Virus record (IMG/VR): IMGVR_UViG_3300008262_000047
Direction: 5' to 3' (one strand)
Origin: a virus
Length of the DNA stretch: 64,000 nucleotides
Both the position numbers and the translations under genes were made by a program. The notes under the pieces are model-generated. The model was given only the letters and a program-made list of their open reading frames with translations, made no database searches and had not been told where the DNA came from. Of the stretch, positions 6,019-21,423 are shown piece by piece. Position 1 is the first letter of the stretch. The number at the start of each line of letters is the position of its first letter.

Positions 6019-6025
6019 TGATGCC

Positions 6026-6054: not shown

Positions 6055-6081
6055 ACAATATGACTCTAATCGTGAGGTGTT

Positions 6082-6990: not shown

Positions 6991-7243
6991 AAGTGAAACT
7001 AACAAGAAGTTTGGGGGAGTATGTGGCGGTATTGGTGAGATGTACGATTGGGATGTTACTGTCGTACGCATTGCAGCATTTTGCCTATTGTTCACCCCGG
7101 TGCCCATTGTGATTGCATATTTTGCCGCCTGGTTCATCATCCCCACAAAAGGAGAACTAGATGCTGGCAACACTATCACTAGCAGTGATGCTACAACTCG
7201 CAGCGGCAGAACCAAAGATAAAAAAGAATTTCTTGCCGGGTAA
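6977..7243 (+). CDS. PspC-domain membrane protein
   Basis: YRSETNKKFGGVCGGIGE...VRI...AYFAAWFIIP. Confidence 0.85.
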   Translation: MKWYRSETNKKFGGVCGGIGEMYDWDVTVVRIAAFCLLFTPVPIVIAYFAAWFIIPTKGELDAGNTITSSDATTRSGRTKDKKEFLAG

Positions 7244-7685
7244 GGTTCCCCGTGACACAACAAAAAATTATGTTGTTATTCATAATGATGGAGGGAATTT
7301 AAATGCGAGTGCAACACGATTGGTTTTACGGGCAAGAAAATTGGCATACCATTATTTCATCCAAACTGATGGGTCAATTTTTCAATTCATGGATTTACGC
7401 CATAGTGCAAAACATGCAGGCGATTCACGTTGGGGTGGTATGTTTGGTTGGAATGGCTTTAGCATAGCCATTGCACTACAAGGAACAAATTCCACCAATT
7501 ATAGCTGTAAGCAGTACGAGAGCTTGAAAAATTTATTATCTTATATTAGATTGCGGTATCCTGATAATGTTGAGAAACCCATACTAGGTCATTCAGATAT
7601 TGCATGGCCTCGGGGCAGAAAACATGACCCAGGGAAAAACTTTGACTTGAGGAACATAGAACATGACTCTACCTGCATCACCTGA
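7161..7685 (+). CDS. N-acetylmuramoyl-L-alanine amidase (Amidase_2) with signal-like N-terminus
   Basis: VVIHND, AYHYFI, AKHAG, GHSDI, RKHDPG. Confidence 0.85.
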   Translation: MLATLSLAVMLQLAAAEPKIKKNFLPGKVPRDTTKNYVVIHNDGGNLNASATRLVLRARKLAYHYFIQTDGSIFQFMDLRHSAKHAGDSRWGGMFGWNGFSIAIALQGTNSTNYSCKQYESLKNLLSYIRLRYPDNVEKPILGHSDIAWPRGRKHDPGKNFDLRNIEHDSTCIT

Positions 7686-7923
7686 AGATAAGCTGAAGTT
7701 ACTTGATGCCTTAAAGGAAATTTCGGCCAGCATGACCCGCGTTGAGGCGGAGCGTGACCTGATGAAAACATTAAAGAACGATGTCTGCGACGACCTACAA
7801 TTGAATCGTAAGGTGCTCAACAAGTTGGCACGCACCTACCACAAGGGCAATTACAGTGAAGAAGTTGAACTGCATAAGGATTTTGAGCAGTTGTATGAAA
7901 CTGTAACCAAGAAGGCGTCATAA
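7663..7923 (+). CDS. T4 DsbA-like dsDNA-binding protein
   Basis: EISASMTRVEAERD...LARTYHK...FEQLYE pattern. Confidence 0.7.
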   Translation: MTLPASPEDKLKLLDALKEISASMTRVEAERDLMKTLKNDVCDDLQLNRKVLNKLARTYHKGNYSEEVELHKDFEQLYETVTKKAS

Positions 7924-7924
7924 T

Positions 7925-8935
7925 ATGGTCAAGTTGGATTTTGATGATGTCTTAATTGTGCCACAATTTTCTGACATTACATCACGTAGTCAGGTAGATG
8001 TGACTACAACAATCCAAGGCAAGTGGGGTACATCCATCACGGGTGTCCCCATCATTGCTGCCAATATGGATGGTGTCGGTACATTTAGTATGCATCGCGC
8101 ATTGAAGAAGTTTGATATGTTTACTGCCATTACAAAACATCACATGTTAGATGATTGGATGGTGCAAGAAGATATCTCTCATGCCTTCTTAACAATTGGT
8201 ATGAGTGATGATGACCTGTGTAAGGCGTTGGATGTGTCACAATATATGCGTAACAAGGGATTGAAGCCGAAAATTGTCATTGATGTGGCGAATGGTTACA
8301 TGAACACCTTCTATGATTTCGTTTCGCGTGTGCGCGAGAGCATACCTGACGCCTTCATCATGGCAGGAACCGTAGTTACACCTGAGGCAGTTGAGCGTGT
8401 GATCCTGTCAGGCGCAGATTTAGCGCGCGTGGGCATTGGAACCGGTGCTGTATGTACTACACGGCGTGTTGCGGGTGTGGGTTATCCGCAATTTTCTGCT
8501 CTCATGGAGTGTGTTCCTGCTGCTGAAGGCGTAGGAGGCGGCGTTCAGAGCGACGGCGGGTGTGTTTTTCCTGGTGATTTCTCAAAAGCACTGGCCGTAG
8601 GAGCACAAATGGTGATGGCAGGCAGTATTTTTGCCGGCCATGATGAGTCGGAACAAGAAATTCGTGATGGAAAAGTGACTTTTTACGGCATGAGCAGCCA
8701 TGCAGCTCAACAAAAGCACAATCAAGTGAAAAATTACCGCGCTTCCGAGGGGCGTGTCGTACAAATTCCATACAAGGGACTAGTAGAACACACTGTTATT
8801 GACATTTTAGGCGGAATTCGTTCAACATGTGCCTATATTGACGCGATAAATATCTCGGAAATGTCTGAAAAGGCACAATTCATCCAAGTAAACAATGTCC
8901 TTAACCGCTCTTTGGAGCAATATACGGTGCGATGA
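7925..8935 (+). CDS. guaC: GMP reductase
   Basis: LDFDDVLI, AANMDGVG, IDVANGY, GAVCTTR, DGGC, FYGMSS, YRASEGR. Confidence 0.93.
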   Translation: MVKLDFDDVLIVPQFSDITSRSQVDVTTTIQGKWGTSITGVPIIAANMDGVGTFSMHRALKKFDMFTAITKHHMLDDWMVQEDISHAFLTIGMSDDDLCKALDVSQYMRNKGLKPKIVIDVANGYMNTFYDFVSRVRESIPDAFIMAGTVVTPEAVERVILSGADLARVGIGTGAVCTTRRVAGVGYPQFSALMECVPAAEGVGGGVQSDGGCVFPGDFSKALAVGAQMVMAGSIFAGHDESEQEIRDGKVTFYGMSSHAAQQKHNQVKNYRASEGRVVQIPYKGLVEHTVIDILGGIRSTCAYIDAINISEMSEKAQFIQVNNVLNRSLEQYTVR

Positions 8936-9039
8936 TGAAAATTGTAGATAAAATTGTTGATTGGCTTATCACAAAGTTGCTAGATTATAAATTTTACAGA
9001 CAAAAAAAGAACAATAACGATGAATTCATTTATCCATGA
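8932..9039 (+). CDS. 35-aa peptide ending in EFIYP
   Basis: ATGA overlaps at both ends link guaC to the methyltransferase. Confidence 0.55.
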   Translation: MMKIVDKIVDWLITKLLDYKFYRQKKNNNDEFIYP

Positions 9040-9650
9040 AAACTGTTACAATAGCACCTGAAAGAATCATTCAATGGATGAATGTTATTCGTAGCTATCA
9101 ACATGATTCTTCTAAACAATATCGTATTTTAGAAAATTTTTGGGAGAGCCAAATTAAAAGTAAGGTTTGGTTAGTGGAAAATCTTTGTAATACCAACACT
9201 AAAAATTTTTCAAACGTATACATATTCGGGGGATGGTACGGAATTCTATCACAAATGATAGTGGATACATATCCCCATGTGAAAGTTTTTTCTATTGACC
9301 AGGATCCTGAATGTACAGCAATAGGAGCTGCATTATGTAATCATGATTCTAGAATAAACTTTATCACAGAAAAAATGGAAAATTTTTCTGATTATAGCGA
9401 TGATTCTTTGGTAATTAATACTTCAGTTGAACACGTAAACCAAAAAATTCTTGATACCTGGTATAGAAAAATACCCAATAATACTGTTATTGCTTTGCAA
9501 AGCAATAACTATTTTGATTGTGATGAACATGTTAATTGTGTAGACACGTTGGAAGAATTTTATGCGCCGTTCATTCTAATGAATGTTCGTATGACTGGAT
9601 CTTTAGATTGTAAACAATTTACTCGTTTTATGATTATAGGTGTGAAGTGA
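9036..9650 (+). CDS. Class I SAM-dependent methyltransferase
   Basis: VYIFGGWYG motif I, SIDQD, VINTSVEH. Confidence 0.75.
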   Translation: MKTVTIAPERIIQWMNVIRSYQHDSSKQYRILENFWESQIKSKVWLVENLCNTNTKNFSNVYIFGGWYGILSQMIVDTYPHVKVFSIDQDPECTAIGAALCNHDSRINFITEKMENFSDYSDDSLVINTSVEHVNQKILDTWYRKIPNNTVIALQSNNYFDCDEHVNCVDTLEEFYAPFILMNVRMTGSLDCKQFTRFMIIGVK

Positions 9651-9685
9651 TTTTTTACTGTACAAACTTTTAAATATGTGCACTC

Positions 9686-11236
9686 ATGACTATAGAATAT
9701 CATAATAGCGCAGAAATAATGCGTGAAAAATTGAATGGTGTAAGTTCCTCAATGTGTCTTGCAAAATGGCTTCAGGTTTCTCTACATTTGCCTCAAGGAA
9801 GAACACAGAGTTGCTATCACCCGCCCACACATTCCATCCCGGTTGAACTTTTGAAAAAGAATCCGGGTGTGTTACATAATACACCTCAAAAAATTGAAGA
9901 ACGACGGATGATGATGGAGGGAAAACGTCCTGCTGGTTGTTCTTATTGTTGGAAAATGGAAGATGCACCCGGCGGAGGTGTAGAGGGGCATATGAGCGAC
10001 CGTCATTATAGAAGTAGTGAATGGTGGGCTGCACCTGTATTTGATGAGGTTGTGAAAAATGGGGCTGAATGGGATGTGTCGCCAAGATATGTTGAGGTAA
10101 ACTTCAATCAAGCCTGTAATTTCAAGTGTATGTACTGCAGCCCGCATTTAAGTACCACCTGGCATGATGAAGTCAAAACATTTGGTCCCTATGCATTGAA
10201 AAATTTTGAACACAATGATGTTAAGGCGTTAGAAAATATGAATTTGATGCCTTTGGACGTTGCACAGAAAGATAATCCGTATGTTCAGGCATTTTGGGAC
10301 TGGTGGCCACAAATTTATCATAATCTCCGTGTATTTCGAATGACGGGCGGCGAACCTTTAATGGATGCCAATACCTATAAGGTTCTAGACTATGTTAACA
10401 ATCACCCCCATGGACAGATAGAGTTATCCATTACTTCTAACATGTGTCCTCCGCGTCAAGAATTATTTGAAAAATTCATGAGCACAGTTAAAGACATGGA
10501 AACCATCCGTGTTTTTGAAGATACACACAACGTAAATCCTGAAACGAATAACAACTGGTATATTCAATCTGCCTTCAAACACTTCATGTTATTTGTGAGT
10601 TGTGATGGTTATGGTGAGCAAGCTGAGTATATGCGTCATGGTATGGAATTTCCAAGATTACTGAATAATGTGAGAACGTTTTTGAGAGAAACACGACATA
10701 CAAGTGTAAGTTTCATCAATACATTCAATATTCTCAGTATTCCTAGTTTGAAACAGTTTTTACAGATGATCCTAGACCTGCGCGAAGAATTTGGAGGTAA
10801 GCACCAACAAGATTATGTTGTAGAAGTTGCTCCCACACACGGTGTTGTACATCCTCCTTTTGTAAAAAAGAAATTTCAGAGAATTTGGTTTGATATTCCA
10901 GTTCTTCGATATCCCACATGGTTCATGATTCAAAATGCAGGACCGGAAGGTGTTGAAAAAATACAGGATATCATTAAATTCATGGAAGACAATGTTCAGG
11001 GTGAAGATTACTCCGAGACATTCACGGGATTCAAGCCATATGAAATTTTAAAGTTGAAGCGTAATCTAGCCTTGATGGAGGAAGGTATAGATAGTCAACA
11101 ACTTCGTGACAATAAAGAAAACTTTTATCGTTTCATTCAAGAACACGATAAGAGAAGAAATACAAATTTTGTGAAAACCTTCCCAGAATACGAACAATTC
11201 TTTTTAGAATGTAAACATGAGGCATACAATAGATGA
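9686..11236 (+). CDS. Radical SAM protein 1 with N-terminal twitch-like Cys domain
   Basis: CNFKCMYC, TGGEP, N-terminal C...CYH...CSYC. Confidence 0.9.
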   Translation: MTIEYHNSAEIMREKLNGVSSSMCLAKWLQVSLHLPQGRTQSCYHPPTHSIPVELLKKNPGVLHNTPQKIEERRMMMEGKRPAGCSYCWKMEDAPGGGVEGHMSDRHYRSSEWWAAPVFDEVVKNGAEWDVSPRYVEVNFNQACNFKCMYCSPHLSTTWHDEVKTFGPYALKNFEHNDVKALENMNLMPLDVAQKDNPYVQAFWDWWPQIYHNLRVFRMTGGEPLMDANTYKVLDYVNNHPHGQIELSITSNMCPPRQELFEKFMSTVKDMETIRVFEDTHNVNPETNNNWYIQSAFKHFMLFVSCDGYGEQAEYMRHGMEFPRLLNNVRTFLRETRHTSVSFINTFNILSIPSLKQFLQMILDLREEFGGKHQQDYVVEVAPTHGVVHPPFVKKKFQRIWFDIPVLRYPTWFMIQNAGPEGVEKIQDIIKFMEDNVQGEDYSETFTGFKPYEILKLKRNLALMEEGIDSQQLRDNKENFYRFIQEHDKRRNTNFVKTFPEYEQFFLECKHEAYNR

Positions 11237-12783
11237 CTAGACGTTCAGATGAAAACTTCTTAGAATTCAAGAAACGAATGATTGATAGTGTCAGCCCAAG
11301 TTTCTGTGCTGCCAAATGGTATAATGCAACCATTTGGTTGGGACATGGACAGACTACAAGTTGTCACCATCCTCCTGGTCATAACATTGATGTCGCAGAA
11401 TTGGAAGCAAATCCTTCTGCCATTCACAACACAAAACATAAAAAGCTAATGCGTAAGTACATGCAAGAAGGTACACGCCCAGCAGAATGTGAGTATTGTT
11501 GGAAGGTGGAAGATATCGGAAGAAACAATGTCTCTGACCGAGTATACAAAACAGAAATTTACAAGGATGCGGACATTCTTCGTGCCAGTACAATGAATTG
11601 GCAGGATGATGTTACGCTTCGTACACTAGAAATTTCTTTTGAACGGACTTGTAATTTTGCATGTTCATATTGTAACCCTGCCTTCTCAACAACCTGGGTG
11701 AAAGACATTAAAACTTTAGGTCCATATAGAAATATTGTAAGTGATGGACGAGGACATTTCATTGATGTTGCACCCTGGGCTCAAGGATATCGTCACGAGG
11801 ATGAGAATCCGTATGTCAAGGCATTTTGGCGTTGGTGGGAATCAGATTTGGCAGATAATCTTGAAGAAATCCGTATCACAGGCGGCGAACCTTTGATGGC
11901 ACCGTCAGTCTGGAAGTTATTTGATTGGTTCAAGCAAAATCCGGAACGTGGTAGAAATATGCGATTTGCCATGAACTCAAATCTTGTACCGAAAAAACAA
12001 GAAACACTGGACAAGTTGATTGAGGCTAGTCATCATGTACCTCGTTTTCAAATTTACACTTCAAATGAATCAGTGGGTAAACATTCCGAATATATTCGTG
12101 ATGGTATGAAATATGAGGAATGGAAGAACAACTTACATCGGTTAATTTCTGAGGGTAATCTTGAAAGTTTACATATGATGATGACCATTAACAGCCTGTG
12201 TTTATCATCAATCACAGAATTTATGGATGATATGTTTGAGTTCAAGAGAAAATATGGTCGTCAGTACATGAACATGTCATTAAACATTCTTCGTTTCCCA
12301 TCATTTCAAAGTGCAGCTGTACTGCCCAAAGACATGAAGGAGAAATTCCGTGATAAACTTCGAATTTGGCTTGATGCTGTTCTTGTGAAAGGAGAGAAGG
12401 ATATGAACGGTCTCACACTATTAAGCCCATGGGAGCAAGCTCATGTGGAGCGACTAATTGATTATCTTGATAGTGTTGACACACCACATAAAAATACTGC
12501 CGAGAAGGACATGTTGTATAATGATTTCAAAAATTTCTACTTACAATATGATGTGCGTCGAGGAAAAAATTTCCGTGAAACATTTCCGAAGGAATTTGTA
12601 GACTTCATTGATAGTATTGATGTTCCGGTGCCAACAGAAGATGAAATCAAGAATAATCGGTATCGTAAGGAATTAAATGTTATACATGACATGGCAGGAG
12701 ATCCTGCCACTACGGCAGGATATGATGAAGATACATCTCATGGATGGAATACCCTCAAGGATGAGTTAGGAGCCAATGAGTAA
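11233..12783 (+). CDS. Radical SAM protein 2 (N-twitch)
   Basis: CNFACSYC, TGGEP, C...CHH...CEYC. Confidence 0.9.
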   Translation: MTRRSDENFLEFKKRMIDSVSPSFCAAKWYNATIWLGHGQTTSCHHPPGHNIDVAELEANPSAIHNTKHKKLMRKYMQEGTRPAECEYCWKVEDIGRNNVSDRVYKTEIYKDADILRASTMNWQDDVTLRTLEISFERTCNFACSYCNPAFSTTWVKDIKTLGPYRNIVSDGRGHFIDVAPWAQGYRHEDENPYVKAFWRWWESDLADNLEEIRITGGEPLMAPSVWKLFDWFKQNPERGRNMRFAMNSNLVPKKQETLDKLIEASHHVPRFQIYTSNESVGKHSEYIRDGMKYEEWKNNLHRLISEGNLESLHMMMTINSLCLSSITEFMDDMFEFKRKYGRQYMNMSLNILRFPSFQSAAVLPKDMKEKFRDKLRIWLDAVLVKGEKDMNGLTLLSPWEQAHVERLIDYLDSVDTPHKNTAEKDMLYNDFKNFYLQYDVRRGKNFRETFPKEFVDFIDSIDVPVPTEDEIKNNRYRKELNVIHDMAGDPATTAGYDEDTSHGWNTLKDELGANE

Positions 12784-14164
12784 GATTCTTCCAATCTGGC
12801 AACATGGCCAGCTGGATCCTGAGAGTCCAAATAAAGTATTTTGTATGGCACCTTGGACACACACCTACATCTCCCCGCAAGGAGAACGTAGGTTGTGTTG
12901 TGCCAGCCGTGAGGAACATAGTTTTCAAAAACAATACATTGATGCATCAAATGATGAACGATATGGTGAAGTAAAAGAATCAAAAACATCAGCAGATGAT
13001 TTCAATCCTGTGTCACTTAAGGAACACTGGAATAGTGAGTACATGAAGGATATTCGTAAAAAACTCATGGCAGGTGAACGTATCCCTCAGTGTGATGTAT
13101 GTAACGATGACATTTTGAGTGTTAGTAGTTATCGTAAATGGTTCACGGGTGCGTTATTTCAACACAAGATTCAAGAGGCATTTACCAAGACGGATGAAAC
13201 AGGATTCACAACTATGGAACCCATTTCATTTGATTATCGGTACTCTAACATTTGTAATTTCAAATGTAGAATGTGTGGTGAACAGCTTAGTTCATCCTGG
13301 GAGGCTGAAAAGAAGAAACATGGGTTCTGGACACCTGAACACCAGCCCTTCATGATTCCTGAAGTCAAAGAGAAGATGCAGAAATTCCAGATTGATGTTG
13401 TGGAGCCTGAATTTCGTGATGCCATTTCTCGCGGCATTGTTGAGGAATGTTACTGGGTCGGAGGGGAACCGCTGATGTATGAGATACATTGGTGGGCATT
13501 GGAGGAAATGATTAAAAACGGTAGTGCAAAAAATTGTTATCTTCGATATAATAGCAATTTAAGTCGTGTGGAATACTATGGCAAGAACTTATATGACTAT
13601 CTCCCACAATTTAAAGATTGGTTGATGTGTGCCAGTATTGATGGCACGGGCGACATTGTTGAATATATTCGTAAAGGTATTAAATGGGATATATGGTTAA
13701 ACAATTTCAAACAAGGTTTACAAATTCCAGGTGGTCAAGATAGAATGTTGTTTGACTTGACTATTACAGGACCAGGCATGTTTGCATTAAAAGATTTGTT
13801 TGATTTATCATTGGAATTAAATGTGCGTATTGAAACAAAAATTATGTTTGCATTTCATCCCGATATTGTGTTGAGTCCTTTTGCATGGCCACGACATATT
13901 CTAGATAGAAAAATTGACGAACTATTGGCATATATGACACCTCGGGCAACAGGTAAAAGCTACTCACTAATAAACACGTTAAACGAGATGAAGAAGCGCC
14001 CGACCTTCCAGGAACAATTTTCAGATGCCGAAGAAAAATTCTTTAATGGAAGAAATTGGCATCGACAATTAGATAAAGTTCGCGGAGAACTATATACTAT
14101 CGAAGATATTTACAAACAGGATACAGAATTATATGACTGGTGGAATAGACAATCCGTACGGTAA
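12776..14164 (+). CDS. Radical SAM protein 3 (N-twitch)
   Basis: CNFKCRMC, VGGEP, C...CC...CDVC. Confidence 0.9.
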   Translation: MSKILPIWQHGQLDPESPNKVFCMAPWTHTYISPQGERRLCCASREEHSFQKQYIDASNDERYGEVKESKTSADDFNPVSLKEHWNSEYMKDIRKKLMAGERIPQCDVCNDDILSVSSYRKWFTGALFQHKIQEAFTKTDETGFTTMEPISFDYRYSNICNFKCRMCGEQLSSSWEAEKKKHGFWTPEHQPFMIPEVKEKMQKFQIDVVEPEFRDAISRGIVEECYWVGGEPLMYEIHWWALEEMIKNGSAKNCYLRYNSNLSRVEYYGKNLYDYLPQFKDWLMCASIDGTGDIVEYIRKGIKWDIWLNNFKQGLQIPGGQDRMLFDLTITGPGMFALKDLFDLSLELNVRIETKIMFAFHPDIVLSPFAWPRHILDRKIDELLAYMTPRATGKSYSLINTLNEMKKRPTFQEQFSDAEEKFFNGRNWHRQLDKVRGELYTIEDIYKQDTELYDWWNRQSVR

Positions 14165-15299
14165 AATTTGCTCATTGCCTTGGAAACATTTGGCCACACA
14201 TCCTCACGGTGGTTGTACATTGTGTTGCATTTCAGACCACACAGGTGGAGCAAGTCGAGCAAGAAATTTTCAAGGAGATAAGGTTGAGTGGCTTTCGTTA
14301 AACACGAACAGCATCAATGAAATCATGAATAGTGATTATTATCGTCAGGTTCGTTTAGAAATGTTAAACGGTGTTGAACCCGCTTCATGTAAACGCTGTT
14401 ATGATGATGAGCGCATGGGACTACGAAGTAAACGAATTGAAGAAAATGAGCGATATTTTTCTGATGATATTGTAGAACACACTAACTCTGACGGTACTAT
14501 TTCCCTTGACTTTGAATTCATCGAACTTCGCTTGGGTAATGTGTGTAATCTTCGATGCCGAACATGTAATCCTGCAAGTAGTACCAAATGGATACGCGAC
14601 CATAAAATGTTAGAACATAAACTTTCGTTCGTCACGAAATATGGAGATATTGAACGTGGCACATGGTATGAGAGTGATACCTTCTGGGATGATTTGCTAT
14701 CTCATTCACACAATGTTAAAAGAATATACATTAATGGAGGAGAACCCACATTAATTAAAAAACATTTTTCCTATCTTGAAAAACTCATTGAGACCGGATT
14801 AAATAATAATATTGAACTTTGGTACAATTTAAATCTCACTAATGTTGATGATGAATTATTAGCCTACTGGAAACAATTCAAGAAGTGTACTATAAGTGCA
14901 AGCATAGATGATTTGGGAGAAAGAAATGAATACATCAGAACCAATAGTGTGTGGGAAACAACGTTGGCAAATCTACGGAAATTAAAACAGGAATCCTGGA
15001 TAGAATTAAGTGTCGTACAAACTGTTAGCCTATATAATATTGAACATATAGCTGAATTTTATGATTTTATAGTTCATCAAGAAAAAATTCCAATACACAT
15101 AAACTGGGTTTATGATCCAGTATTTCAACAAGCATGGCATCTAGAAGAACATAAAAAGAGTGTTATAATAGAGCAGTGTCGGAACATCATGTACTCATGG
15201 GATTTCGATAATGTAAAAAATCATTTGTCAAAACCTAGTATAGAAAGTATGCGAGAAAAATTCATAACCTTTAACAGTGTATTAGATGAACATGTTTAA
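14133..15299 (+). CDS. Radical SAM protein 4 (N-twitch)
   Basis: CNLRCRTC, NGGEP, C...CC...CKRC. Confidence 0.9.
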   Translation: MTGGIDNPYGKICSLPWKHLATHPHGGCTLCCISDHTGGASRARNFQGDKVEWLSLNTNSINEIMNSDYYRQVRLEMLNGVEPASCKRCYDDERMGLRSKRIEENERYFSDDIVEHTNSDGTISLDFEFIELRLGNVCNLRCRTCNPASSTKWIRDHKMLEHKLSFVTKYGDIERGTWYESDTFWDDLLSHSHNVKRIYINGGEPTLIKKHFSYLEKLIETGLNNNIELWYNLNLTNVDDELLAYWKQFKKCTISASIDDLGERNEYIRTNSVWETTLANLRKLKQESWIELSVVQTVSLYNIEHIAEFYDFIVHQEKIPIHINWVYDPVFQQAWHLEEHKKSVIIEQCRNIMYSWDFDNVKNHLSKPSIESMREKFITFNSVLDEHV

Positions 15300-16524
15300 C
15301 AAAGAGCTATTAAAAGAAAGTAAAAGATTTTGTTTAATACCGTGGATACATATGCATACATGGCCTAACGGCAACACATACATGTGTTGTACATCTGACC
15401 CACAAACTCCGTTAGGGGTTCTTTCTAAAGAAAATTCTTTGAAGCATCTATGGAATTCACCTCAAATGAAAAAGAATCGTTTAGCAATGTTAAACGATGA
15501 ATATGTTCCTGAATGCAGCAGATGCTACGAGATAGAAGAATTTGGTGGTAATAGCCTTCGCACTGACATAACTCGTAATTTTTTCCATCACATTGATAAA
15601 GTAGATGAGACTTTAGAAGATGGCACAGTTGAGAAGATGAATCTTCCCTATGTTGATTTTAGATTTAGTAATTTTTGTAATTTACGGTGTAGAACATGTG
15701 GCCCTGAGCTTAGTAGTAAGTGGGCATTAGACCATAATACTCTTTTAGGCAAACCTGCGGGAAGTGTTGTTGTAACTAAACCCGATATTCCCAGGGAAAT
15801 TTTTTGGGAACAGATAGAAGAAATAATACCTACAATAGAAAGTGTGTATTTTGCTGGCGGTGAGCCCTTACTGATGGAAGAGCACTATAAATTTTTAAAT
15901 CTTTTAATTGAACACAACAAAACAAATATCAATCTGATATATAACACCAATTTATCTAATGTTGTATTTAAAAATACACATATCTGTGATTATTGGAAGA
16001 AATTTGATAAAGTTGTTGTACTAGCTTCTTTAGATTCATGGGGTCCCAGAGCGGAGTACATTAGAAAAGGACTGACTTGGTCCAAAGCAGAAAAAAATAT
16101 TCGTGATATTAAAACATTAACTCCACATGTCGAATTTATTATTGGTGTAACGTTGAGCGTTTTTAATTTTGCAACCTTAGTTGAGTACTATGATTACATG
16201 ATAGATAATAATTTTATTTCATATGATAATATGAATATAAACATTGTAACTGATCCTCTTTGGTATAAAGCAAATGTTGTTCCTTTAGATTTTCGTTTAC
16301 AGGTAGCAGAAAAATATCAGGAAAAAATTGACTTTCTCACGAAAAATAAACTTTGTGGTAAGACCATGTTAGATAGATGGGAATTGGCTAAAAATTATAT
16401 TACTGCTCCCTTTGACGCAGTAAATCATGAGCAGTTTATAAGCCTCACTAAACATCTAGATAAGATTAGAAAGGAATCTTTTACCTCTACATTTCCTGAA
16501 TTGAGTTTTATGTTTCATGAGTAA
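15286..16524 (+). CDS. Radical SAM protein 5 (N-twitch)
   Basis: CNLRCRTC, AGGEP, C...CC...CSRC. Confidence 0.9.
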   Translation: MNMFNKELLKESKRFCLIPWIHMHTWPNGNTYMCCTSDPQTPLGVLSKENSLKHLWNSPQMKKNRLAMLNDEYVPECSRCYEIEEFGGNSLRTDITRNFFHHIDKVDETLEDGTVEKMNLPYVDFRFSNFCNLRCRTCGPELSSKWALDHNTLLGKPAGSVVVTKPDIPREIFWEQIEEIIPTIESVYFAGGEPLLMEEHYKFLNLLIEHNKTNINLIYNTNLSNVVFKNTHICDYWKKFDKVVVLASLDSWGPRAEYIRKGLTWSKAEKNIRDIKTLTPHVEFIIGVTLSVFNFATLVEYYDYMIDNNFISYDNMNINIVTDPLWYKANVVPLDFRLQVAEKYQEKIDFLTKNKLCGKTMLDRWELAKNYITAPFDAVNHEQFISLTKHLDKIRKESFTSTFPELSFMFHE

Positions 16525-17680
16525 AACATTTTGTATTCTTCCATTTGTGCATTTAGAGGCACGGTCGGACAGTTTTGTTGCACCTTGCTGTATGAGTCAA
16601 GAATTTTATACAAAGGATACAGGAGAATTTTTTTCCCTTAGTAAAGACACCTTATCAGATGTATGGAATTCTTCTTCTATCCGAAATTTAAGAACTTCTC
16701 TATTAGAAGGTAAAAAACCCACTGCCTGTGCTGCCTGTTGGAAGGAAGAAGAATTTGGTAAAGAAAGTAAAAGAATACGTGAAAATAAAAGATGGAATAT
16801 AAATCACGAAACTTTTACACCAGAAAGAATTAACTCAGAAAATACTGTATGTGAGATAAAATTTCTTGACCTCAAATTAGGTAACACATGTAATTTAAAA
16901 TGTAGAATTTGTAGCCCAGGTAGTTCTAGTAATTGGGTAAAGGAACATAAGGATATATATGGTTCTGACATAGTTACTGATATTGGACAAAAAGTAAACG
17001 CAGATAGAAAGCAAGTAATGCAATGGCCTGATTATAATGAAAATTTTTGGACCGATTTGAATACTATATTACCTAATGTTGAGTTATTTGAAATATATGG
17101 GGGAGAACCTTTCTTAATCTCCCGCGGATATAGTAAAAAACAAAAGATACACTATAATACCAACGGAACTATTTTCCCTGAAATAGCTGTAAAGGAAATC
17201 TGGCCACATTTTGAGGATGTGGATATTATGCTAAGTATTGATGGAATCGGACCACAATTTGAGTATCAACGATATCCTGCCAAGTGGGATAGTGTTTTGA
17301 ATAACATTCAAAGATTTAAAAATGAATTTTCAGGAAGAACGCAAATTTGTCTAACCGTCAGTTCCATTAATGTATTTTATCTACCTGAGTATCTTGAATT
17401 TTTTCAATCACAAGAAATACCTGTTTGGTTAAACATTTTATATCACCCTGAGGTTCTTTCAATTGTAAATCTTTCTTCATTCGCTAAGGATAAAATTAGT
17501 GAGAAAATCAATAAGTACACGCATTTAAATACTGACCTTACTTCCGTATTAAATTTTATGAATGCTGAAGGTAAGAATCTAGAACAGGAATTCATTCACA
17601 AAATGAAAACTCATGATGAATACCGTAAACAAAATTATGCTTCTGTGTTTGAGGAATTTTCAAACATATTGACACTATGA
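16517..17680 (+). CDS. Radical SAM protein 6 (N-twitch), with an internal in-frame shortening
   Basis: CNLKCRIC, YGGEP, C...CC...CAAC. Confidence 0.88.
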   Translation: MSKTFCILPFVHLEARSDSFVAPCCMSQEFYTKDTGEFFSLSKDTLSDVWNSSSIRNLRTSLLEGKKPTACAACWKEEEFGKESKRIRENKRWNINHETFTPERINSENTVCEIKFLDLKLGNTCNLKCRICSPGSSSNWVKEHKDIYGSDIVTDIGQKVNADRKQVMQWPDYNENFWTDLNTILPNVELFEIYGGEPFLISRGYSKKQKIHYNTNGTIFPEIAVKEIWPHFEDVDIMLSIDGIGPQFEYQRYPAKWDSVLNNIQRFKNEFSGRTQICLTVSSINVFYLPEYLEFFQSQEIPVWLNILYHPEVLSIVNLSSFAKDKISEKINKYTHLNTDLTSVLNFMNAEGKNLEQEFIHKMKTHDEYRKQNYASVFEEFSNILTL

Positions 17681-18612
17681 AAAAGAAACTGTTAATAACG
17701 CTAGGATGTAGTTTTACCGAAGGAGTTGGTGCATACGATTTGAATAAAATTCCTTCTGTCCATCGTCCAAACAATATTGGAAATGATTTTGTTGTAGAGA
17801 GATACAAATTGTATAGACCAAGATTTCATATGCATAGTTGGTCTCGTTATTTACAAAAGAGTCTAAATTATGATGTGTTGATAAATTTGGGGTTAGGAGG
17901 TTCTAGTGATTCAAATGCAATTAAACGATTTATAGAAGTATTTGATGAAAATTCTTTATCTGAAAATTATGATGTATTAGTTGTATGGGGTCTTACTTTT
18001 CCTGAAAGAATATCATTCTATAAAGATGGTAAAAATGTTAGTATATTACCTGGGTATAAACATGGCGACACCAATCACTATTCACTCGGTGTCTCTTATA
18101 ATAATTTTACCCAAAATAATATATTGGATCATTTTCTAGAACAAATTTTCCATGTCAAAACCATGAGAAATTTATGTAACCGTTATAGTTTCAACTTCTT
18201 ATATTTTTCTATGTTTAATTTTAAAACGAATATTCCAACTAATCTTGCTGAACTACATACTAAATATTTTTCACACGATGAGTACTTAAATTCCTATCTT
18301 CCGGATTCAAATTTTTTGTTAAAAAATAATGAATATAAAAATATATCTGATGCTGATATCACAACTATGGATAAATTTAAAAGATTTTTCCCTTCTGTTG
18401 AAGAAATGTTTCGTGTAGGAATGTTATCACCTGTATGTGGTCATCCCAATGAATATGGATATAGATTCTTATCCCATAGATTATTTTCTATAATAGAACA
18501 AAAATTTCCACAATATGTAAATCATAACACTCCGGATTTTTTCAGTAGCCTATACTGGGGTGAACCTTCAACTTGGGTGGGTATTTTACCCTACCAACAA
18601 ACTATCAAATAG
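17677..18612 (+). CDS. SGNH/GDSL hydrolase-like protein
   Basis: LGCSFTEG, NLGLGGSS, GHPN. Confidence 0.65.
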   Translation: MKKKLLITLGCSFTEGVGAYDLNKIPSVHRPNNIGNDFVVERYKLYRPRFHMHSWSRYLQKSLNYDVLINLGLGGSSDSNAIKRFIEVFDENSLSENYDVLVVWGLTFPERISFYKDGKNVSILPGYKHGDTNHYSLGVSYNNFTQNNILDHFLEQIFHVKTMRNLCNRYSFNFLYFSMFNFKTNIPTNLAELHTKYFSHDEYLNSYLPDSNFLLKNNEYKNISDADITTMDKFKRFFPSVEEMFRVGMLSPVCGHPNEYGYRFLSHRLFSIIEQKFPQYVNHNTPDFFSSLYWGEPSTWVGILPYQQTIK

Positions 18613-18621
18613 ATTGTAAAA

Positions 18622-19914
18622 ATGCAAAAAGAGTTTAAAGTTTTTCCTATTAAAACTAATACAGCATGCCAGTTCAAATGGACCTGGAGTACATTATTTC
18701 TTTCTGAGGGGTCTTCCTCTAGTTGTCATCGCTGTCATGGGTGGGATGTGTCTGATGATATCCAAAACTTCCATAATCATCCGGATAAAATAAAGGATAG
18801 AGAAAAGATGTTGGCCGGTGAATGGCCTGGTAACGGCTGTGAATATTGTAAGACAATTGAAGATGCAGGGGGTGCCAGTGAAAGAACTTCTTTTATTAAT
18901 GATTTAGACCTTGTCCCTAAAGAATTGTTTGATGTTCCTGATGCCACTCACGTTACTCCTAGAATTCTGGAAGTATACTTCACCAATGTTTGTAATCAAA
19001 AGTGTGTTTATTGCTCGCCATTCTTCAGTTCATTAATTCAGAATGAAATTGAACGCTTTGGTCCCATTGAAGCTGAATATGACCTGATGGGATTCAAAAG
19101 TAGAGAAGGATATGAACATAGAAAAGAAGAATTCTGGAAGTGGATGGATAAACATTCTACCGACTTATATCATTTTCAAATTTTGGGCGGAGAACCTATG
19201 TACCAACCTGAATTTGAAGAATGTCTATCATTTTTTGAGGCTAGACAACATCCAAATACCAATTGGAAAATATTTAGTAACTTAAAGCATGATCCCGCAC
19301 AGTTTAAGAAAAAAATTGAACGTGTGGGTACATTAATTGATAGCGGAAAATTACAATCATTTGAAATTGTGTGTAGTATGGATTGTTGGGGCCCTGAAGC
19401 AGAGTTTGCTCGATATGGTATGAGTTTAGATGAGTGGAAAACTAACTTTGAAACACTAATGACTTCACCTCACGTTAGAGTTTCTGTCCATTCTACTATC
19501 ACGCCATTAACCTTGCCTACTATGGCAGAATTTTATAGTTTTTTAAATGACTGGAAAAAAACAAAATATATCAATTACGGTTGGAATATTGTTGTGACAC
19601 CATCATTTATGGACCCATGTATTATTGGCCATCATGCAACAAAATATTTTGATGACCTTATAGAACAAATACCTGTTGAGGAGTTCCCTAGAAAAAATTA
19701 TCTAGATGGTTTTAAGCAAAAGGTAGTGAAACATGACATTGATCCTGTTCGCCTACGTAAGTTGTGGGATTATTTGGATAAAATAGATGTTAGACGAGGA
19801 ACCGATTGGAAAGCAATTTATCCTTGGTTATATAACATTTGTGTTGAGCATGCAAAAGATATTAAACTCAACCATGTTGATAACATAGAACTGATTAGTT
19901 TGAAAAAGAAATGA
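18622..19914 (+). CDS. Radical SAM protein 7 (N-twitch)
   Basis: CNQKCVYC, LGGEP, C...CHRC...CEYC. Confidence 0.9.
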   Translation: MQKEFKVFPIKTNTACQFKWTWSTLFLSEGSSSSCHRCHGWDVSDDIQNFHNHPDKIKDREKMLAGEWPGNGCEYCKTIEDAGGASERTSFINDLDLVPKELFDVPDATHVTPRILEVYFTNVCNQKCVYCSPFFSSLIQNEIERFGPIEAEYDLMGFKSREGYEHRKEEFWKWMDKHSTDLYHFQILGGEPMYQPEFEECLSFFEARQHPNTNWKIFSNLKHDPAQFKKKIERVGTLIDSGKLQSFEIVCSMDCWGPEAEFARYGMSLDEWKTNFETLMTSPHVRVSVHSTITPLTLPTMAEFYSFLNDWKKTKYINYGWNIVVTPSFMDPCIIGHHATKYFDDLIEQIPVEEFPRKNYLDGFKQKVVKHDIDPVRLRKLWDYLDKIDVRRGTDWKAIYPWLYNICVEHAKDIKLNHVDNIELISLKKK

Positions 19915-21365
19915 TAATCTGGGGTATATCTGCCAATAGCCATGATGCTGCCATCTCTGTGGTCCAAGATGGCGAAATCTTGTATGCATCACAATCTGAA
20001 CGATATTCAGGAATAAAAAATGATGCTCATTTAAATCCGGGCATTGTTACAGACGCCAAACGATATGGTGAGCCTGATGTTGTTGTGTGGTATGAGAATC
20101 CTTGGCTGAAAACGTTACGGCAACTTCGTGCAGGACAAGGATGGATCAATAATAGTATTAGAGGGTATCTAAACAAATACAACATCACGGCACCCGTCAC
20201 TACTGTAGGACATCACCATAGTCATGCAGCGGGAGGATATTATACCTCCCCATTTAAAGAAGCGGCTGTATTAGTAATTGATGCCATCGGTGAGTTTGAC
20301 ACCACAACCATTTGGCATGGCACAGATAACAATCTAACAAAGAAATTCTCTGTTAAATATCCACATAGTTTAGGGTTGTGGTATTCAGCCATGACCCAAC
20401 GAATAGGATTAAAACCCAATGAAGAAGAATATATTCTCATGGGCATGGCGGCATATGGGGATCCTTTGAAGTATACTCCAATGATTTTGGAAGATTTCTT
20501 TGATAGCAGAGACATTTTGAAGTTGAATGATAATCTTCATCGAGGATGCATGAACTGGCGCCCTGAATTGAAATCTCAACAAGACTTGTATGATATTGCC
20601 GCGGCAACACAATTTGTCTACGAACTATATTTTCATGATTTAGTAGATAAGGCACAAAAACTCACAGGAAGTAAAAACTTAGTGTTGGGTGGCGGGTGTG
20701 CCTTGAATTGTGTTGCCAATAATATTGCCTTCCAATATTTTGAGAATGTCTGGATTATGCCAAATCCAGGCGATGCAGGAAATAGTCTCGGTGCCATTGC
20801 TGCTCATCAACAAGAATTCTTGAACTGGCGTGGTCCCTATCTTGGATTTGATATGGGTGTGAAATATCCCACGGGACAATTGATTGAAACACTACAGAAA
20901 GATGGCATTGCAGGTGTGGCATTTGGTCGTGCAGAATTTGGTCCTCGTGCTTTAGGACATAGAAGTTTATTGGCTGATCCTCGCGGTGATGACATCAAGG
21001 ATAAGGTGAATGTCATCAAGAAACGACAGAAGTTCCGTCCCTTTGCACCTGCCATTCTTGCCGAACATGCCCATGAGTATTTTCACATGCCTACTATGGA
21101 AAGTCCCTATATGCAATACACGGCATTGTGCAAACATCCTTTACAATTCCCTGCCATTGTACACGCAGATGGGACATCTCGCGTACAAACGGTTTCTCAA
21201 AAGGATTCACCCTACTTTCATAGTTTCTTACAAGAATGGTACAAAGAAACTGGATGCCCGATGATTTTAAATACCAGTTTAAACATTAAAGGTAAACCTA
21301 TGGTGAACAACCGCATTGATGCTATAGAGTTTTCCAAACGATATTCGGTGCCTGTACATACTTGA
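19911..21365 (+). CDS. Carbamoyltransferase (NodU/CmcH/TobZ family)
   Basis: HDAA, HHHSHAA, IDAIGE, GGCALNC, GRAEFGPRALG, FRPFAP, LNTSLN. Confidence 0.95.
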   Translation: MIIWGISANSHDAAISVVQDGEILYASQSERYSGIKNDAHLNPGIVTDAKRYGEPDVVVWYENPWLKTLRQLRAGQGWINNSIRGYLNKYNITAPVTTVGHHHSHAAGGYYTSPFKEAAVLVIDAIGEFDTTTIWHGTDNNLTKKFSVKYPHSLGLWYSAMTQRIGLKPNEEEYILMGMAAYGDPLKYTPMILEDFFDSRDILKLNDNLHRGCMNWRPELKSQQDLYDIAAATQFVYELYFHDLVDKAQKLTGSKNLVLGGGCALNCVANNIAFQYFENVWIMPNPGDAGNSLGAIAAHQQEFLNWRGPYLGFDMGVKYPTGQLIETLQKDGIAGVAFGRAEFGPRALGHRSLLADPRGDDIKDKVNVIKKRQKFRPFAPAILAEHAHEYFHMPTMESPYMQYTALCKHPLQFPAIVHADGTSRVQTVSQKDSPYFHSFLQEWYKETGCPMILNTSLNIKGKPMVNNRIDAIEFSKRYSVPVHT

Positions 21366-21390
21366 CAAACCACAATGAATGATGTATATT
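21362..21390 (+). promoter_or_regulatory. Sigma70-type early promoter
   Basis: TTGACA-17 nt-TATATT upstream of the ligase. Confidence 0.8.
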
Positions 21391-21423
21391 ACATATAGAC
21401 TCTTAAACGAGGATATATCATTC

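What the first reader, a model, noticed from the sequence alone, without database searches (positions are those of the whole stretch)
9036..21365. Array of seven N-twitch radical SAM genes with methyl-, carbamoyl- and SGNH-type enzymes
Seen: seven paralogues, each with CxxxCxxC, GGEP and an N-terminal C...C...CxxC cluster domain, mostly with overlapping starts and stops, over about 12 kb. They fall in two subtypes: C(x)H in copies 1, 2, 7 and CC in copies 3-6. They are flanked by a methyltransferase, an SGNH-like gene and a NodU-type carbamoyltransferase. Known: SPASM/twitch radical SAMs modify peptides, sugars or cofactors, and I know of no assigned function for this N-terminal variant. Inference: a phage biosynthetic cluster for hypermodifying virion proteins, glycans or nucleotides.
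Basis: partly seen in the sequence, partly recalled or inferred. Interest (0 to 1): 0.82.

Follow-up and report, generated by a model that had tools for sequence, protein, structure and literature searches.

The report
Swappable phage radical-SAM enzyme cassette
An uncultured marine T4-like phage carries seven old, intact, very different copies of a catalogued but never-tested iron-sulfur "radical SAM" enzyme; a near-identical sister phage holds a different set in the same place, and the cassette most likely edits sugars by unknown chemistry.

Summary
Seven co-directional, mostly overlapping genes (9686-19914) all pass the cut-off of NCBIfam NF033640 (N_Twi_rSAM). Each keeps four N-terminal twitch cysteines, CxxxCxxC and GGEP, and the two subtypes are real clades. 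They are not recent duplicates (20-33% identity). Five belong to orthogroups found about once per locus in roughly 60-65 of 80 related viral contigs; two are accessory. All seven are under strong purifying selection (dN/dS 0.02-0.12).

New here:
- A sister phage record has flanks 92-97% identical in DNA. It carries a different radical-SAM set between about 9000 and 19900. More distant phages keep this exact seven-gene set. So the array is an exchangeable cassette.
- The 311-aa gene has an SGNH fold.
- A conserved 35-aa tyrosine-tailed micro-gene (8932-9039) opens the cassette and tracks the carbamoyltransferase across loci.
- Related phage operons add GT8-like enzymes and a StrB1-like amidinotransferase.

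Best reading (about 0.5): a sugar or glycan tailoring cassette. The chemistry and target are unknown. I found no paper that characterises the family. This scan has met the same kind of array on other DNA several times (jumbo and T4-like phages, CPR, Omnitrophota).

The parts
8932..9039 (+). 35-aa micro-ORF (P0122) with a helical N-terminus, a basic middle and a C-terminal ...FIYP. It belongs to a family ending (R/K)-D-P-F-I-Y-(K/R/P).
   Evidence: ATGA overlaps on both sides. Homologues are in G001 and L175 and in 54 of 87 array loci. It co-occurs with the carbamoyltransferase (43 both, 11 micro only, 1 carbamoyltransferase only, 32 neither; Fisher p 2.5e-13). A profile search finds 343 representative clusters, almost all 29-90 aa, mostly matched up to their C-terminus.
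9036..9650 (+). 204-aa protein with a class I SAM-binding (methyltransferase-like) fold. It is part of the swapped cassette.
   Evidence: Weak matches only: NCBIfam trans-aconitate methyltransferase E 8e-4 and CntL-type SAM enzymes E 0.12. Orthologues precede the array in G001, L173-L175 and L051. dN/dS is 0.23-0.25.
9686..11236 (+). N-twitch radical SAM copy 1, core orthogroup A (S-C-x-H subtype), 516 aa
   Evidence: NF033640 301 bits. Its clade holds 63-77 sequences from 62-75 loci. dN/dS about 0.04.
11233..12783 (+). N-twitch radical SAM copy 2, core orthogroup B (S-C-x-H subtype), 516 aa
   Evidence: NF033640 308 bits. Its clade holds 67-69 sequences from 65 loci. dN/dS 0.02-0.05.
12776..14164 (+). 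N-twitch radical SAM copy 3, core orthogroup C (CC subtype), 462 aa
   Evidence: NF033640 323 bits. Its clade holds 59-61 sequences, one per locus. dN/dS 0.02-0.04.
14133..15299 (+). N-twitch radical SAM copy 4, accessory orthogroup d (CC subtype), 388 aa
   Evidence: NF033640 333 bits. Its clade has only 7 loci and is sister to orthogroup F. dN/dS 0.06-0.08.
15286..16524 (+). N-twitch radical SAM copy 5, core orthogroup E (CC subtype), 412 aa. This is the type that also occurs as a single copy in many bacteria.
   Evidence: NF033640 395 bits. AlphaFold2 model pLDDT 93. Its clade holds 92 sequences from 88 loci, and the wider clade holds most cellular singletons. dN/dS 0.06-0.07.
16517..17680 (+). 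N-twitch radical SAM copy 6, core orthogroup F (CC subtype), 387 aa
   Evidence: NF033640 321 bits. Its clade holds 65-70 sequences from 63-66 loci. dN/dS 0.07-0.12.
17677..18612 (+). 311-aa SGNH-fold protein related to DUF6071, with Ser12 in G-C-S-F-T-E-G and a near-invariant His256
   Evidence: HMMs of clusters c9 and c11 match it at E 2e-13 and 2e-9. The c9 representative hits Pfam DUF6071. A profile against PDB finds GDSL and carbohydrate esterases, best E 1e-4. The AlphaFold2 core plus Foldseek gives SGNH/GDSL-type esterases and lipases in all but one of the listed matches (prob 1.0, target TM 0.5-0.69). dN/dS 0.31.
18622..19914 (+). N-twitch radical SAM copy 7, accessory orthogroup g (S-C-x-H subtype), 430 aa
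   Evidence: NF033640 224 bits. Its clade has 11 sequences from 10 loci and is sister to A+B. dN/dS about 0.06.
19911..21365 (+). NodU/CmcH/TobZ-family carbamoyltransferase, 484 aa. It is the right-hand anchor of the cassette.
   Evidence: Pfam Carbam_trans_N and Carbam_trans_C. It is 100% identical in protein to the G001 copy although the array differs. It is present in 44 of 87 array loci. It is 47% identical to an unnamed ORF of the cultured Ralstonia phage RsoM2USA.
3317..4114 (+). 265-aa fusion of a P-loop kinase and an HxGH nucleotidyltransferase (cluster c13). In other phages it sits next to the carbamoyltransferase of the array operon; here it lies 5 kb upstream.
   Evidence: Cluster c13 HMM E 3e-121. 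Pfam AAA_33/APS_kinase plus CTP_transf_like. NCBIfam matches to NMN adenylyltransferase and APS kinase are all below cut-off.

Best explanation
Shown: the region is one co-directional, mostly start/stop-overlapping run of genes in an uncultured marine T4-like phage. It encodes seven anciently diverged members of the uncharacterised N-terminal-twitch radical SAM family (NF033640). Each has an intact SAM-cluster motif and a fully Cys-ligated auxiliary-cluster motif with the pattern C-x17/18-C-x(about 35-64)-CxxC, and this region aligns to the twitch domain of BtrN. The run also holds a SAM-fold protein, an SGNH-fold protein, a NodU/TobZ-type carbamoyltransferase and a Tyr-tailed micro-protein. 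Five of the seven are a fixed set conserved across many phages, and two are add-ons. The block from about 9000 to 19900 is exchanged as a unit between otherwise near-identical phages. Inferred: the enzymes are tailoring enzymes for sugars, acting on nucleotide-sugars or on a growing glycan. Each would generate a 5'-deoxyadenosyl radical and abstract a defined sugar C-H hydrogen. The auxiliary cluster would serve as an electron sink or relay, giving oxidation to a keto-sugar, epimerisation, dehydration or a related rearrangement. The carbamoyl, acyl (SGNH) and methyl enzymes would then decorate the product. The product is probably a surface glycoconjugate of the virion or of the infected cell, made with the phage's own glycosyltransferases. 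Its structure would be under diversifying selection, which would explain the cassette exchange. The exact reactions, the substrate and the location of the product are not known.
For: Family membership and intact motifs. The twitch region aligns to BtrN residues 184-258, and the core is most like anSME, BlsE, SkfB, MoaA and viperin (Z 11.5-13.1). Orthogroup structure and a conserved phage operon. Viral loci carry 3-7 copies (mode 5), whereas bacterial loci mostly carry one. Purifying selection on all seven, as strong as on the neighbouring GMP-reductase-like and ligase genes. Cassette swap: G001 flanks are 92-97% identical, identity collapses between about 9000 and 19900, and G001 holds another set there (4 N-twitch enzymes, one other radical SAM, 2 SGNH-like genes). 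L173-L175 have a backbone only 75-86% identical in protein, yet keep the same seven genes at 71-95%. Carbohydrate context in the phage operons: the SGNH fold, the carbamoyltransferase, a StrB1-like amidinotransferase (PDB 1bwd, E 8e-73), two glycogenin/GT8-like genes (E 3e-4), and GT10 and GT-A leads. Carbohydrate context elsewhere: DegT, epimerase and Gfo genes beside a metagenomic array, and GT2, GT4, epimerase, Wzt-like ABC and GDSL neighbours in bacteria. Distant phage carbamoyltransferases sit beside heptose-nucleotide genes and a tail fibre in P-SSM2. The window itself has GT32-like, GT2 and FkbM genes after a tail fibre.
Against: No member of NF033640 has a known reaction, so the chemistry is pure inference. 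This window's cassette contains no glycosyltransferase, amidinotransferase or nucleotide-sugar gene. It lies among early or metabolic genes (UvdE, GMP-reductase-like, ligase, PhoH), not among virion genes, and no exact T4-type late promoter precedes it. Immediate neighbours of bacterial single copies are heterogeneous; GT2 appears in only 5 of 78. Some bacterial members are fused to TPR or Sel1 repeats, or lie near ATP-grasp and HTTM genes, which fits protein or peptide substrates better. The GT10, GT-A and GT8 assignments are weak. SPASM/twitch enzymes are most often peptide maturases.
Confidence: 0.5

Rival explanations
1. Peptide or protein maturation (RiPP-like). The radical SAM enzymes would install cross-links, epimerisations or oxidations on a ribosomal peptide or on a phage protein. 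The substrate could be the conserved Tyr-tailed micro-protein at 8932-9039.
For: SPASM/twitch enzymes are typically peptide maturases, and the best fold matches include anSME, SkfB, CteB and SuiB. A conserved 33-37-aa peptide with an invariant D-x-F-I-Y tail is present in 54 of 87 array loci and opens this cassette. Bacterial homologues are fused to TPR or Sel1 repeats, and ATP-grasp and HTTM genes occur nearby. The 3' half of the micro-gene diverges together with the cassette between the window and G001.
Against: Pfam detects no PqqD/RRE-like domain. The micro-gene tracks the carbamoyltransferase, not the radical SAM genes: 43 of 44 carbamoyltransferase loci have it, and in 22 its stop overlaps the carbamoyltransferase start. 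L173 and L174 keep all seven enzymes plus an eighth but lack both the micro-gene and the carbamoyltransferase. The peptide tail is nearly invariant while the enzyme sets vary. There are no other small ORFs in the gaps, which are at most 36 nt inside the array.
Confidence: 0.17
2. Nucleotide or DNA chemistry. The enzymes would act on nucleoside triphosphates or on phage DNA bases (viperin/MoaA/QueE-like chemistry), to hypermodify the genome or to make chain-terminating or signalling nucleotides.
For: The core shows weak similarity to viperin, MoaA and QueE. The cassette sits among nucleotide and DNA metabolism genes: adenylosuccinate synthetase, a GMP-reductase-like gene, ligase, UvdE and two QueC-like PP-loop genes. 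A kinase-nucleotidyltransferase fusion travels with the operon elsewhere.
Against: All matches to nucleotide-acting families are far below their cut-offs. The window shows no DNA-modification hallmark genes such as a base hydroxymethylase, DpdA or a DNA glycosyltransferase. In most phages the operon follows tail-fibre-like genes and carries GT8-like and amidinotransferase genes. Exchanging a cassette of seven enzymes between near-identical phages is not expected for a genome-wide DNA modification matched to the phage's own polymerase and nucleases.
Confidence: 0.1
3. A free small molecule. The cassette, together with carbamoyl, amidino and glycosyl enzymes in related phages, would make a diffusible aminoglycoside-like or cyclitol-type compound, rather than decorating a virion or cell-surface polymer.
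For: The enzyme types mirror aminoglycoside pathways: a BtrN-type twitch domain, a TobZ-family carbamoyltransferase, and a StrB1-like amidinotransferase that scores better against StrB1 than against the glycine amidinotransferases. Here the cassette lies outside the structural module.
Against: No cyclitol synthase or exporter was seen. In most phages the operon follows fibre-like genes. In bacteria the partners are polymer-export and glycosyltransferase genes.
Confidence: 0.1

Closest known systems
NCBIfam NF033640, N_Twi_rSAM (twitch domain-containing radical SAM protein)
   Same: All seven genes score above the family cut-off over the full model length. They have the N-terminal 4-Cys domain followed by the CxxxCxxC core.
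   Different: The family is only a catalogue entry. I found no paper naming it or its function. The fixed five-member set, the accessory members and the cassette exchange in phages are not part of any description I could find.
BtrN (2-deoxy-scyllo-inosamine dehydrogenase, butirosin pathway), the founding twitch radical SAM enzyme
   Same: The auxiliary-cluster region aligns to the BtrN twitch domain, with four Cys in a similar spacing. BtrN acts on a sugar-like substrate. A similar role of the cluster as electron acceptor is plausible.
   Different: In BtrN the twitch domain is C-terminal; here it is N-terminal (permuted order). Whole-model fold similarity is only generic. No shared substrate has been shown.
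SPASM/twitch peptide maturases (anSME, SkfB, CteB, SuiB, MftC)
   Same: These are the best structural matches of the core (Z 11-13). A conserved Tyr-tailed micro-protein is encoded nearby, which recalls MftA/MftC of mycofactocin; by recall, that product is also glycosylated and methylated.
   Different: There is no RRE domain. The auxiliary domain is on the other end and holds one cluster. The micro-protein follows the carbamoyltransferase, and arrays exist without it.
NodU/CmcH/TobZ O-carbamoyltransferases, and HypF acting on the C-terminus of HypE
   Same: Both Pfam domains of the family are present. By recall, members O-carbamoylate sugars and antibiotics, and HypF carbamoylates the C-terminal residue of a partner protein. 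That offers an analogy for the micro-protein coupled to this enzyme.
   Different: The score is far below the NodU equivalog cut-off (133 against 1000 bits). The first 90 or so residues of the N-terminal domain model are not matched. The acceptor is unknown. The micro-protein partner has no counterpart in the cyanophage carbamoyltransferase loci examined.
Serotype-determining glycan cassettes (O-antigen and capsule loci) and hypervariable islands of T4-like marine phages
   Same: A multi-gene tailoring block is replaced wholesale between conserved anchor genes in near-identical genomes. G+C is lower in part of the block.
   Different: The exchanged genes are radical SAM enzymes rather than glycosyltransferases. 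The product and its location are unknown.
Multi-radical-SAM T4-like environmental viral genomes noted by Nishimura et al. 2017 (PMC5332604)
   Same: That paper reports a 183-kb T4-like marine viral genome with 12 radical SAM genes alongside Fe-S assembly genes.
   Different: It only counts the genes as Fe-S clients. It does not address family, orthogroups, partners, cassette exchange or function.

Membership tests
NF033640 N_Twi_rSAM | Whole-protein HMM score above the curated cut-off (170 bits) | tested here: met
   The seven copies score 301, 308, 323, 333, 395, 321 and 224 bits.
NF033640 N_Twi_rSAM | N-terminal 4-Cys twitch (half-SPASM) domain preceding the radical SAM core | tested here: met
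   Pfam SPASM lies at the N-terminus in copies 3-6. Four Cys are invariant in all seven and 99.8-100% conserved in 509 members.
Radical SAM superfamily | CxxxCxxC cluster motif and GGEP SAM-binding motif | tested here: met
   Both are invariant in all seven. Conservation across 509 family members is 100% for the three Cys, 100% for GG, 99.8% for E and 96.9% for P. Cluster binding and SAM cleavage were not tested.
RiPP-type SPASM/twitch maturases | RiPP recognition element (PqqD-like domain) in the enzyme or as a partner | tested here: inconclusive
   Pfam shows no PqqD match in any cluster protein at E 0.01. Only sequence profiles were used.
RiPP-type SPASM/twitch maturases | A precursor peptide gene that co-occurs with the maturase | tested here: inconclusive
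   A conserved micro-ORF exists. It co-occurs with the carbamoyltransferase (p 2.5e-13). It is absent from L173 and L174, which keep the full array.
BtrN-type twitch dehydrogenases | Twitch domain located C-terminal to the core | tested here: not met
   The domain is N-terminal in all seven.
Viperin / MoaA / QueE (nucleotide-acting radical SAM) | Score above the family cut-off | tested here: not met
   The best scores are 15-36 bits against cut-offs of 180-284.
NodU/CmcH carbamoyltransferase family (Pfam PF02543 + PF16861) | Both domains above gathering score | tested here: met
   The scores are 142.7 and 174.7 bits against cut-offs of 24 and 27. The NodU equivalog is not met (133 against 1000 bits).
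SGNH/GDSL hydrolase fold | Flavodoxin-like SGNH fold with an N-terminal Ser nucleophile motif and a C-terminal His | tested here: met
   All but one of the listed Foldseek matches are SGNH/GDSL-type esterases or lipases. Ser12 in G-C-S-F-T-E-G and His256 are near-invariant in 42 homologues. A profile against PDB gives GDSL proteins at E 1e-4. The model is only pLDDT 71 overall, and activity was not tested.
Class I SAM-dependent methyltransferases | Significant match to a methyltransferase family | tested here: inconclusive
   There is no Pfam match. The best hits are NCBIfam E 8e-4, far below cut-off, and PDB E 0.12. A glycine-rich F-G-G-W-Y-G segment is visible in the sequence.

The most novel reading that the evidence does not exclude
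The cassette would be the variable half of an undescribed phage system that builds a hypervariable, radical-SAM-edited glycoconjugate. Exchanging whole enzyme sets between near-identical phages would act like a serotype switch. The invariant Tyr-tailed micro-protein would be the primer or carrier of the product: a glycogenin- or mycofactocin-like Tyr anchor, or a HypE-like carbamoyl acceptor. That would define both new radical SAM sugar chemistry and a new class of peptide-anchored phage glycan or cofactor.
Probability: 0.12. Interest if true: 0.88.

Novelty: new variant of a known kind. Interest (0 to 1): 0.62.

Why it matters
NF033640 is a very large family. More than 3,000 database clusters match one copy, and at least 579 viral contigs encode a relative, yet no reaction is known for any member. 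In phages the family occurs as a fixed five-enzyme set plus add-ons under strong purifying selection. Here it behaves as an exchangeable cassette between two anchor genes.

Three things would follow if the sugar reading is right. First, the family holds several undescribed radical reactions on carbohydrates. Second, phages of oxygenated water invest heavily in oxygen-sensitive enzymes. Third, phages may vary a surface structure in the way bacteria vary O-antigens, with consequences for host range and defence.

The work also gives concrete handles. One is a cultured phage (Ralstonia phage RsoM2USA) that carries a minimal module: one N-twitch enzyme, three SGNH-like genes, the micro-gene and the carbamoyltransferase. 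Another is an unannotated, widespread micro-protein family tied to the carbamoyltransferase.

Tried and rejected
- **Nucleotide search against cultured phages:** no match. The window's own assembly is not held.
- **Literature:** searches for the family name, N-terminal twitch/SPASM, radical SAM with polysaccharide and epimerase, and radical SAM with carbamoyltransferase in T4-like phages found no paper that characterises the family. An Omnitrophota preprint and the RsoM2USA paper do not discuss these genes.
- **Fold searches of the copy-5 model:** only generic radical SAM cores, with no close structure.
- **Profile-to-PDB searches for operon partners:** nothing for c0, c2 and c4. Pfam found nothing for eight of ten partner families. 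So GT-A (c0) and GT10 (c2) remain weak leads from the atlas only.
- **Promoter and terminator scan:** at background level. There is no exact TATAAATA upstream of the array; only TATAAATT at 8986-8993. Timing of expression is therefore open.
- **Recent local duplication:** rejected. The copies are 20-33% identical and sit in separate, widely shared clades.
- **Relaxed selection or pseudogenes:** rejected. Many window-to-relative pairs have saturated dS, so the L174-L175 pairs with dS 0.14-1.0 carry the weight.
- **Micro-protein as the radical SAM substrate:** judged less likely, for the reasons given under the rival explanations.
- **Fusions of the micro-protein to larger domains:** essentially none.
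- **Failed script runs:** All were repeated successfully.

Full report
**1. What is there**

The window is part of an uncultured phage with T4-type genes. It has a gp32-like protein and a tail fibre with an S74 chaperone domain. A 470-aa window protein is distantly similar to proteins of T4-type cyano-, Salmonella and Vibrio phages. Between a GMP-reductase-like gene (7925-8935) and a DNA ligase (21379-22716) lies a run of co-directional genes whose starts and stops mostly overlap.

Seven of them match NCBIfam NF033640, 'twitch domain-containing radical SAM protein', at 224-395 bits against a cut-off of 170. They are at 9686-11236, 11233-12783, 12776-14164, 14133-15299, 15286-16524, 16517-17680 and 18622-19914. 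Pfam places a SPASM-type domain at the N-terminus and the radical SAM core after it.

The alignment of the seven shows four invariant N-terminal cysteines, CxxxCxxC and GGEP. The seven cysteines are 99.8-100% conserved and the GGEP residues 97-100% conserved across 509 family members collected here.

**2. The other genes of the block**

- **Carbamoyltransferase (19911-21365).** This is a NodU/CmcH/TobZ-family enzyme, with both Pfam domains matched at E 1e-41 and 1e-51.
- **311-aa gene (17677-18612).** It lies between copies 6 and 7 and has no Pfam match.
  - It is related to two partner families of the phage operons (c9 and c11, E 2e-13 and 2e-9), and the c9 representative hits DUF6071.
  - A profile of 42 homologues finds GDSL and carbohydrate esterases in the PDB (best E 1e-4).
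  - Its AlphaFold2 model has a confident core and an overall pLDDT of 71. All but one of the listed Foldseek matches are SGNH/GDSL-type esterases or lipases.
  - Ser12 (in G-C-S-F-T-E-G) and His256 are nearly invariant.
- **204-aa gene (9036-9650).** It has only weak similarity to SAM-dependent enzymes. It precedes the array in every close relative.
- **Micro-ORF (8932-9039, P0122).**

**3. Old paralogues and a fixed set**

The seven proteins are 20-33% identical to one another. One copy alone has more than 3,000 database relatives at E below 1e-10. Within 10 kb of the match, viral loci carry 3-7 family members (mode 5), whereas bacterial loci mostly carry one.

A maximum-likelihood tree of 509 members places every window copy in its own clade.
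- Copies 1, 2, 3, 5 and 6 fall in orthogroups A, B, C, E and F. Each is represented about once per locus in roughly 60-65 of 80 viral loci.
- Copies 4 and 7 fall in small clades of 7 and 10 loci.

The commonest phage operon reads: fibre-like genes, two GT8-like genes, A, B, E, F, C, a conserved 359-aa unknown, SGNH-like gene(s), the micro-gene, the carbamoyltransferase, and then often a kinase-nucleotidyltransferase fusion, an amidinotransferase and GT10-like genes. The window has a second arrangement, A-B-C-d-E-F-SGNH-g. It lacks the glycosyltransferase-like and amidinotransferase partners.

**4. Selection**

Metagenomic relatives L173, L174 and L175 keep the same seven genes in the same order. 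Pairwise Nei-Gojobori estimates give dN/dS of 0.02-0.12 for all seven. The GMP-reductase-like and ligase genes next door give about 0.09, the SAM-fold gene 0.23-0.25 and the SGNH-like gene 0.31. Many pairs involving the window have saturated dS. The L174-L175 comparisons with dS 0.14-1.0 give the same answer (0.04-0.08). The 'relaxed selection' refutation fails.

**5. The block is an exchangeable cassette**

The nearest held virus record, G001, aligns to the window at 92-97% nucleotide identity on both sides: window 6025-9533 and 19903-45242. A finer profile shows identity falling from 84-94% to about 50-65% at roughly 8990-9030. It returns to 90-100% at 19900, exactly at the start of the carbamoyltransferase gene.

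Between these points G001 carries a different set:
- a 53%-identical SAM-fold gene;
- a 326-aa unknown;
- four N-twitch enzymes, of which only one is a clear orthologue (66%);
- another type of radical SAM gene;
- two SGNH-like genes.

The carbamoyltransferase is 100% identical in protein. Conversely, L173-L175 have backbone genes only 75-86% identical in protein, yet they keep this window's seven genes at 71-95%. G+C falls to 0.32-0.35 across 14-20 kb, against 0.39-0.42 around it. So whole enzyme sets move between phage backbones.

In L173 and L174 the carbamoyltransferase is replaced by an eighth N-twitch enzyme.

**6. The micro-protein**

Homologues of P0122 occur at the same place in G001 and L175. 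As a 33-34-aa form ending R-D-P-F-I-Y-K, they occur in 54 of 87 array loci.

The micro-gene co-occurs with the carbamoyltransferase: 43 loci have both, 11 have the micro-gene only, 1 has the enzyme only and 32 have neither (Fisher p 2.5e-13). In 22 of the 43 its stop overlaps the enzyme's start. This window is the outlier, because the whole cassette sits between the two genes.

L173 and L174 lack both genes. L175 has both. A profile search of 1.8 billion representatives finds 343 clusters, nearly all 29-90 aa, mostly matched up to their C-terminal end, so the family is free-standing. The family therefore belongs with the carbamoyltransferase, not obviously with the radical SAM enzymes. An earlier report of this scan reached the same conclusion on other DNA, and I reproduced it independently.

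**7. What the enzymes may do**

No solved structure is close.
- The twitch region aligns to the C-terminal twitch of BtrN, and the core is weakly similar to viperin.
- Whole-model searches give only generic radical SAM cores: anSME Z 13.1, BlsE 12.6, SkfB 12.1, MoaA and viperin 11.5.
- The copy-5 model is confident (pLDDT 93).

The context points mainly to carbohydrates.
- In the phage operons: the SGNH fold, the O-carbamoyltransferase family, a StrB1-like amidinotransferase (PDB 1bwd E 8e-73, better than the glycine amidinotransferases), glycogenin/GT8-like genes (E 3e-4), and GT10 and GT-A leads.
- Beside a metagenomic array: DegT, epimerase and Gfo genes.
- In bacteria: GT2, GT4, epimerase, Wzt-like ABC ATPase and GDSL neighbours.
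- In the window: a GT32-like/GT2/FkbM group after a tail fibre.
- In P-SSM2: a distant carbamoyltransferase sits beside heptose kinase/adenylyltransferase, GmhA, an epimerase and a tail fibre.

I therefore favour sugar tailoring by hydrogen abstraction, with the auxiliary cluster as electron sink, followed by carbamoyl, acyl and methyl decoration. Confidence is about 0.5.

Counter-evidence is real.
- This cassette itself has no glycosyltransferase.
- It lies among early or metabolic genes.
- Bacterial neighbourhoods are heterogeneous.
- Some bacterial members are fused to TPR or Sel1 repeats, which suits protein substrates.

**8. Comparison with what is known, and novelty**

The genes are members of NF033640, a catalogued family without a known function. 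Searches of the held literature found no paper on the family. Nishimura et al. 2017 (PMC5332604) only count 12 radical SAM genes in a T4-like marine viral genome.

The nearest cultured carrier of the module is Ralstonia phage RsoM2USA. Its ORFs 199-203 encode three SGNH-like proteins, one N-twitch enzyme and the carbamoyltransferase (47% identity). An unannotated micro-ORF lies between ORFs 201 and 200. Its genome paper does not mention these genes.

This scan has already met similar arrays several times on other DNA. What this window adds:
- the clean cassette exchange between near-identical phages;
- the placement of the cassette between the micro-gene and the carbamoyltransferase;
- the selection data;
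- the StrB1-like and GT8-like partner assignments.

I rate it a new variant of a known kind (radical SAM tailoring clusters), with interest 0.62.

Noticed in passing
window 24747-24979 (+): Rfam finds a permuted (two-piece) tmRNA at 119 bits (RF04321), with an overlapping alphaproteobacterial tmRNA match at 60 bits. This may hint at the host group.
   Followed up: partly
L176 8038-8148 (Ralstonia phage RsoM2USA, MG752970, between ORFs 201 and 200): An unannotated 36-codon ORF ending ...R-K-Q-D-P-F-I-Y-K belongs to the micro-protein family. It sits among three SGNH-like genes, one N-twitch radical SAM gene and the carbamoyltransferase. All of these are annotated as hypothetical in a cultured jumbo phage.
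   Followed up: partly
related viral loci, e.g. L092 11079-12098 (-), L090 17109-18134 (-): A StrB1-like amidinotransferase (PDB 1bwd E 8e-73) sits downstream of the carbamoyltransferase in 23 array loci. This suggests a guanidino group on the product. It is absent from this window.
   Followed up: partly
related viral loci, e.g. L123 15726-16802 (+): A 359-aa protein (cluster c4) follows orthogroup C in 45 loci and has many invariant residues, including an H-E-x-E segment. It has no Pfam, NCBIfam or PDB match. It is absent from this window.
   Followed up: partly
L173 11342-12493 and L174 13117-14268: In close relatives of the window phage an eighth N-twitch radical SAM gene (383 aa) occupies the place of the carbamoyltransferase, and the micro-gene is missing too.
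   Followed up: yes
window 14000-20000: G+C drops to 0.32-0.35 over copies 4-7 and the SGNH-like gene, against 0.39-0.42 in copies 1-3 and the flanks. Copies 4-6 are also less conserved against L173-L175 (71-82%) than copies 1-3 (87-95%). The cassette may itself be a mosaic.
   Followed up: no
L022 10001-13318, L015 9275-11212, L017 9209-11212, L072 11531-13303: Bacterial family members are fused to TPR or Sel1 repeat regions. Many metagenomic members of about 560 aa carry an unassigned N-terminal extension of about 160 aa.
   Followed up: partly
window 57743-60668: After a fibre gene with an S74 chaperone domain and a 442-aa protein come a 316-aa unknown, an FkbM-type methyltransferase, a GT32-like DXD glycosyltransferase and a GT2. 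This is a possible source of the glycan that the cassette would edit.
   Followed up: partly
window 4329-4844 and 25038-25616; G001 (L170) 11462-12028: Short QueC-like PP-loop proteins (171-192 aa) occur two or three times per phage, without the rest of a 7-deazaguanine pathway in view.
   Followed up: no
L065 and nine other bacterial loci: Runs of PhyH-family dioxygenase genes (49 genes in 10 loci) lie near single-copy N-twitch radical SAM genes in Bacteroidota.
   Followed up: no
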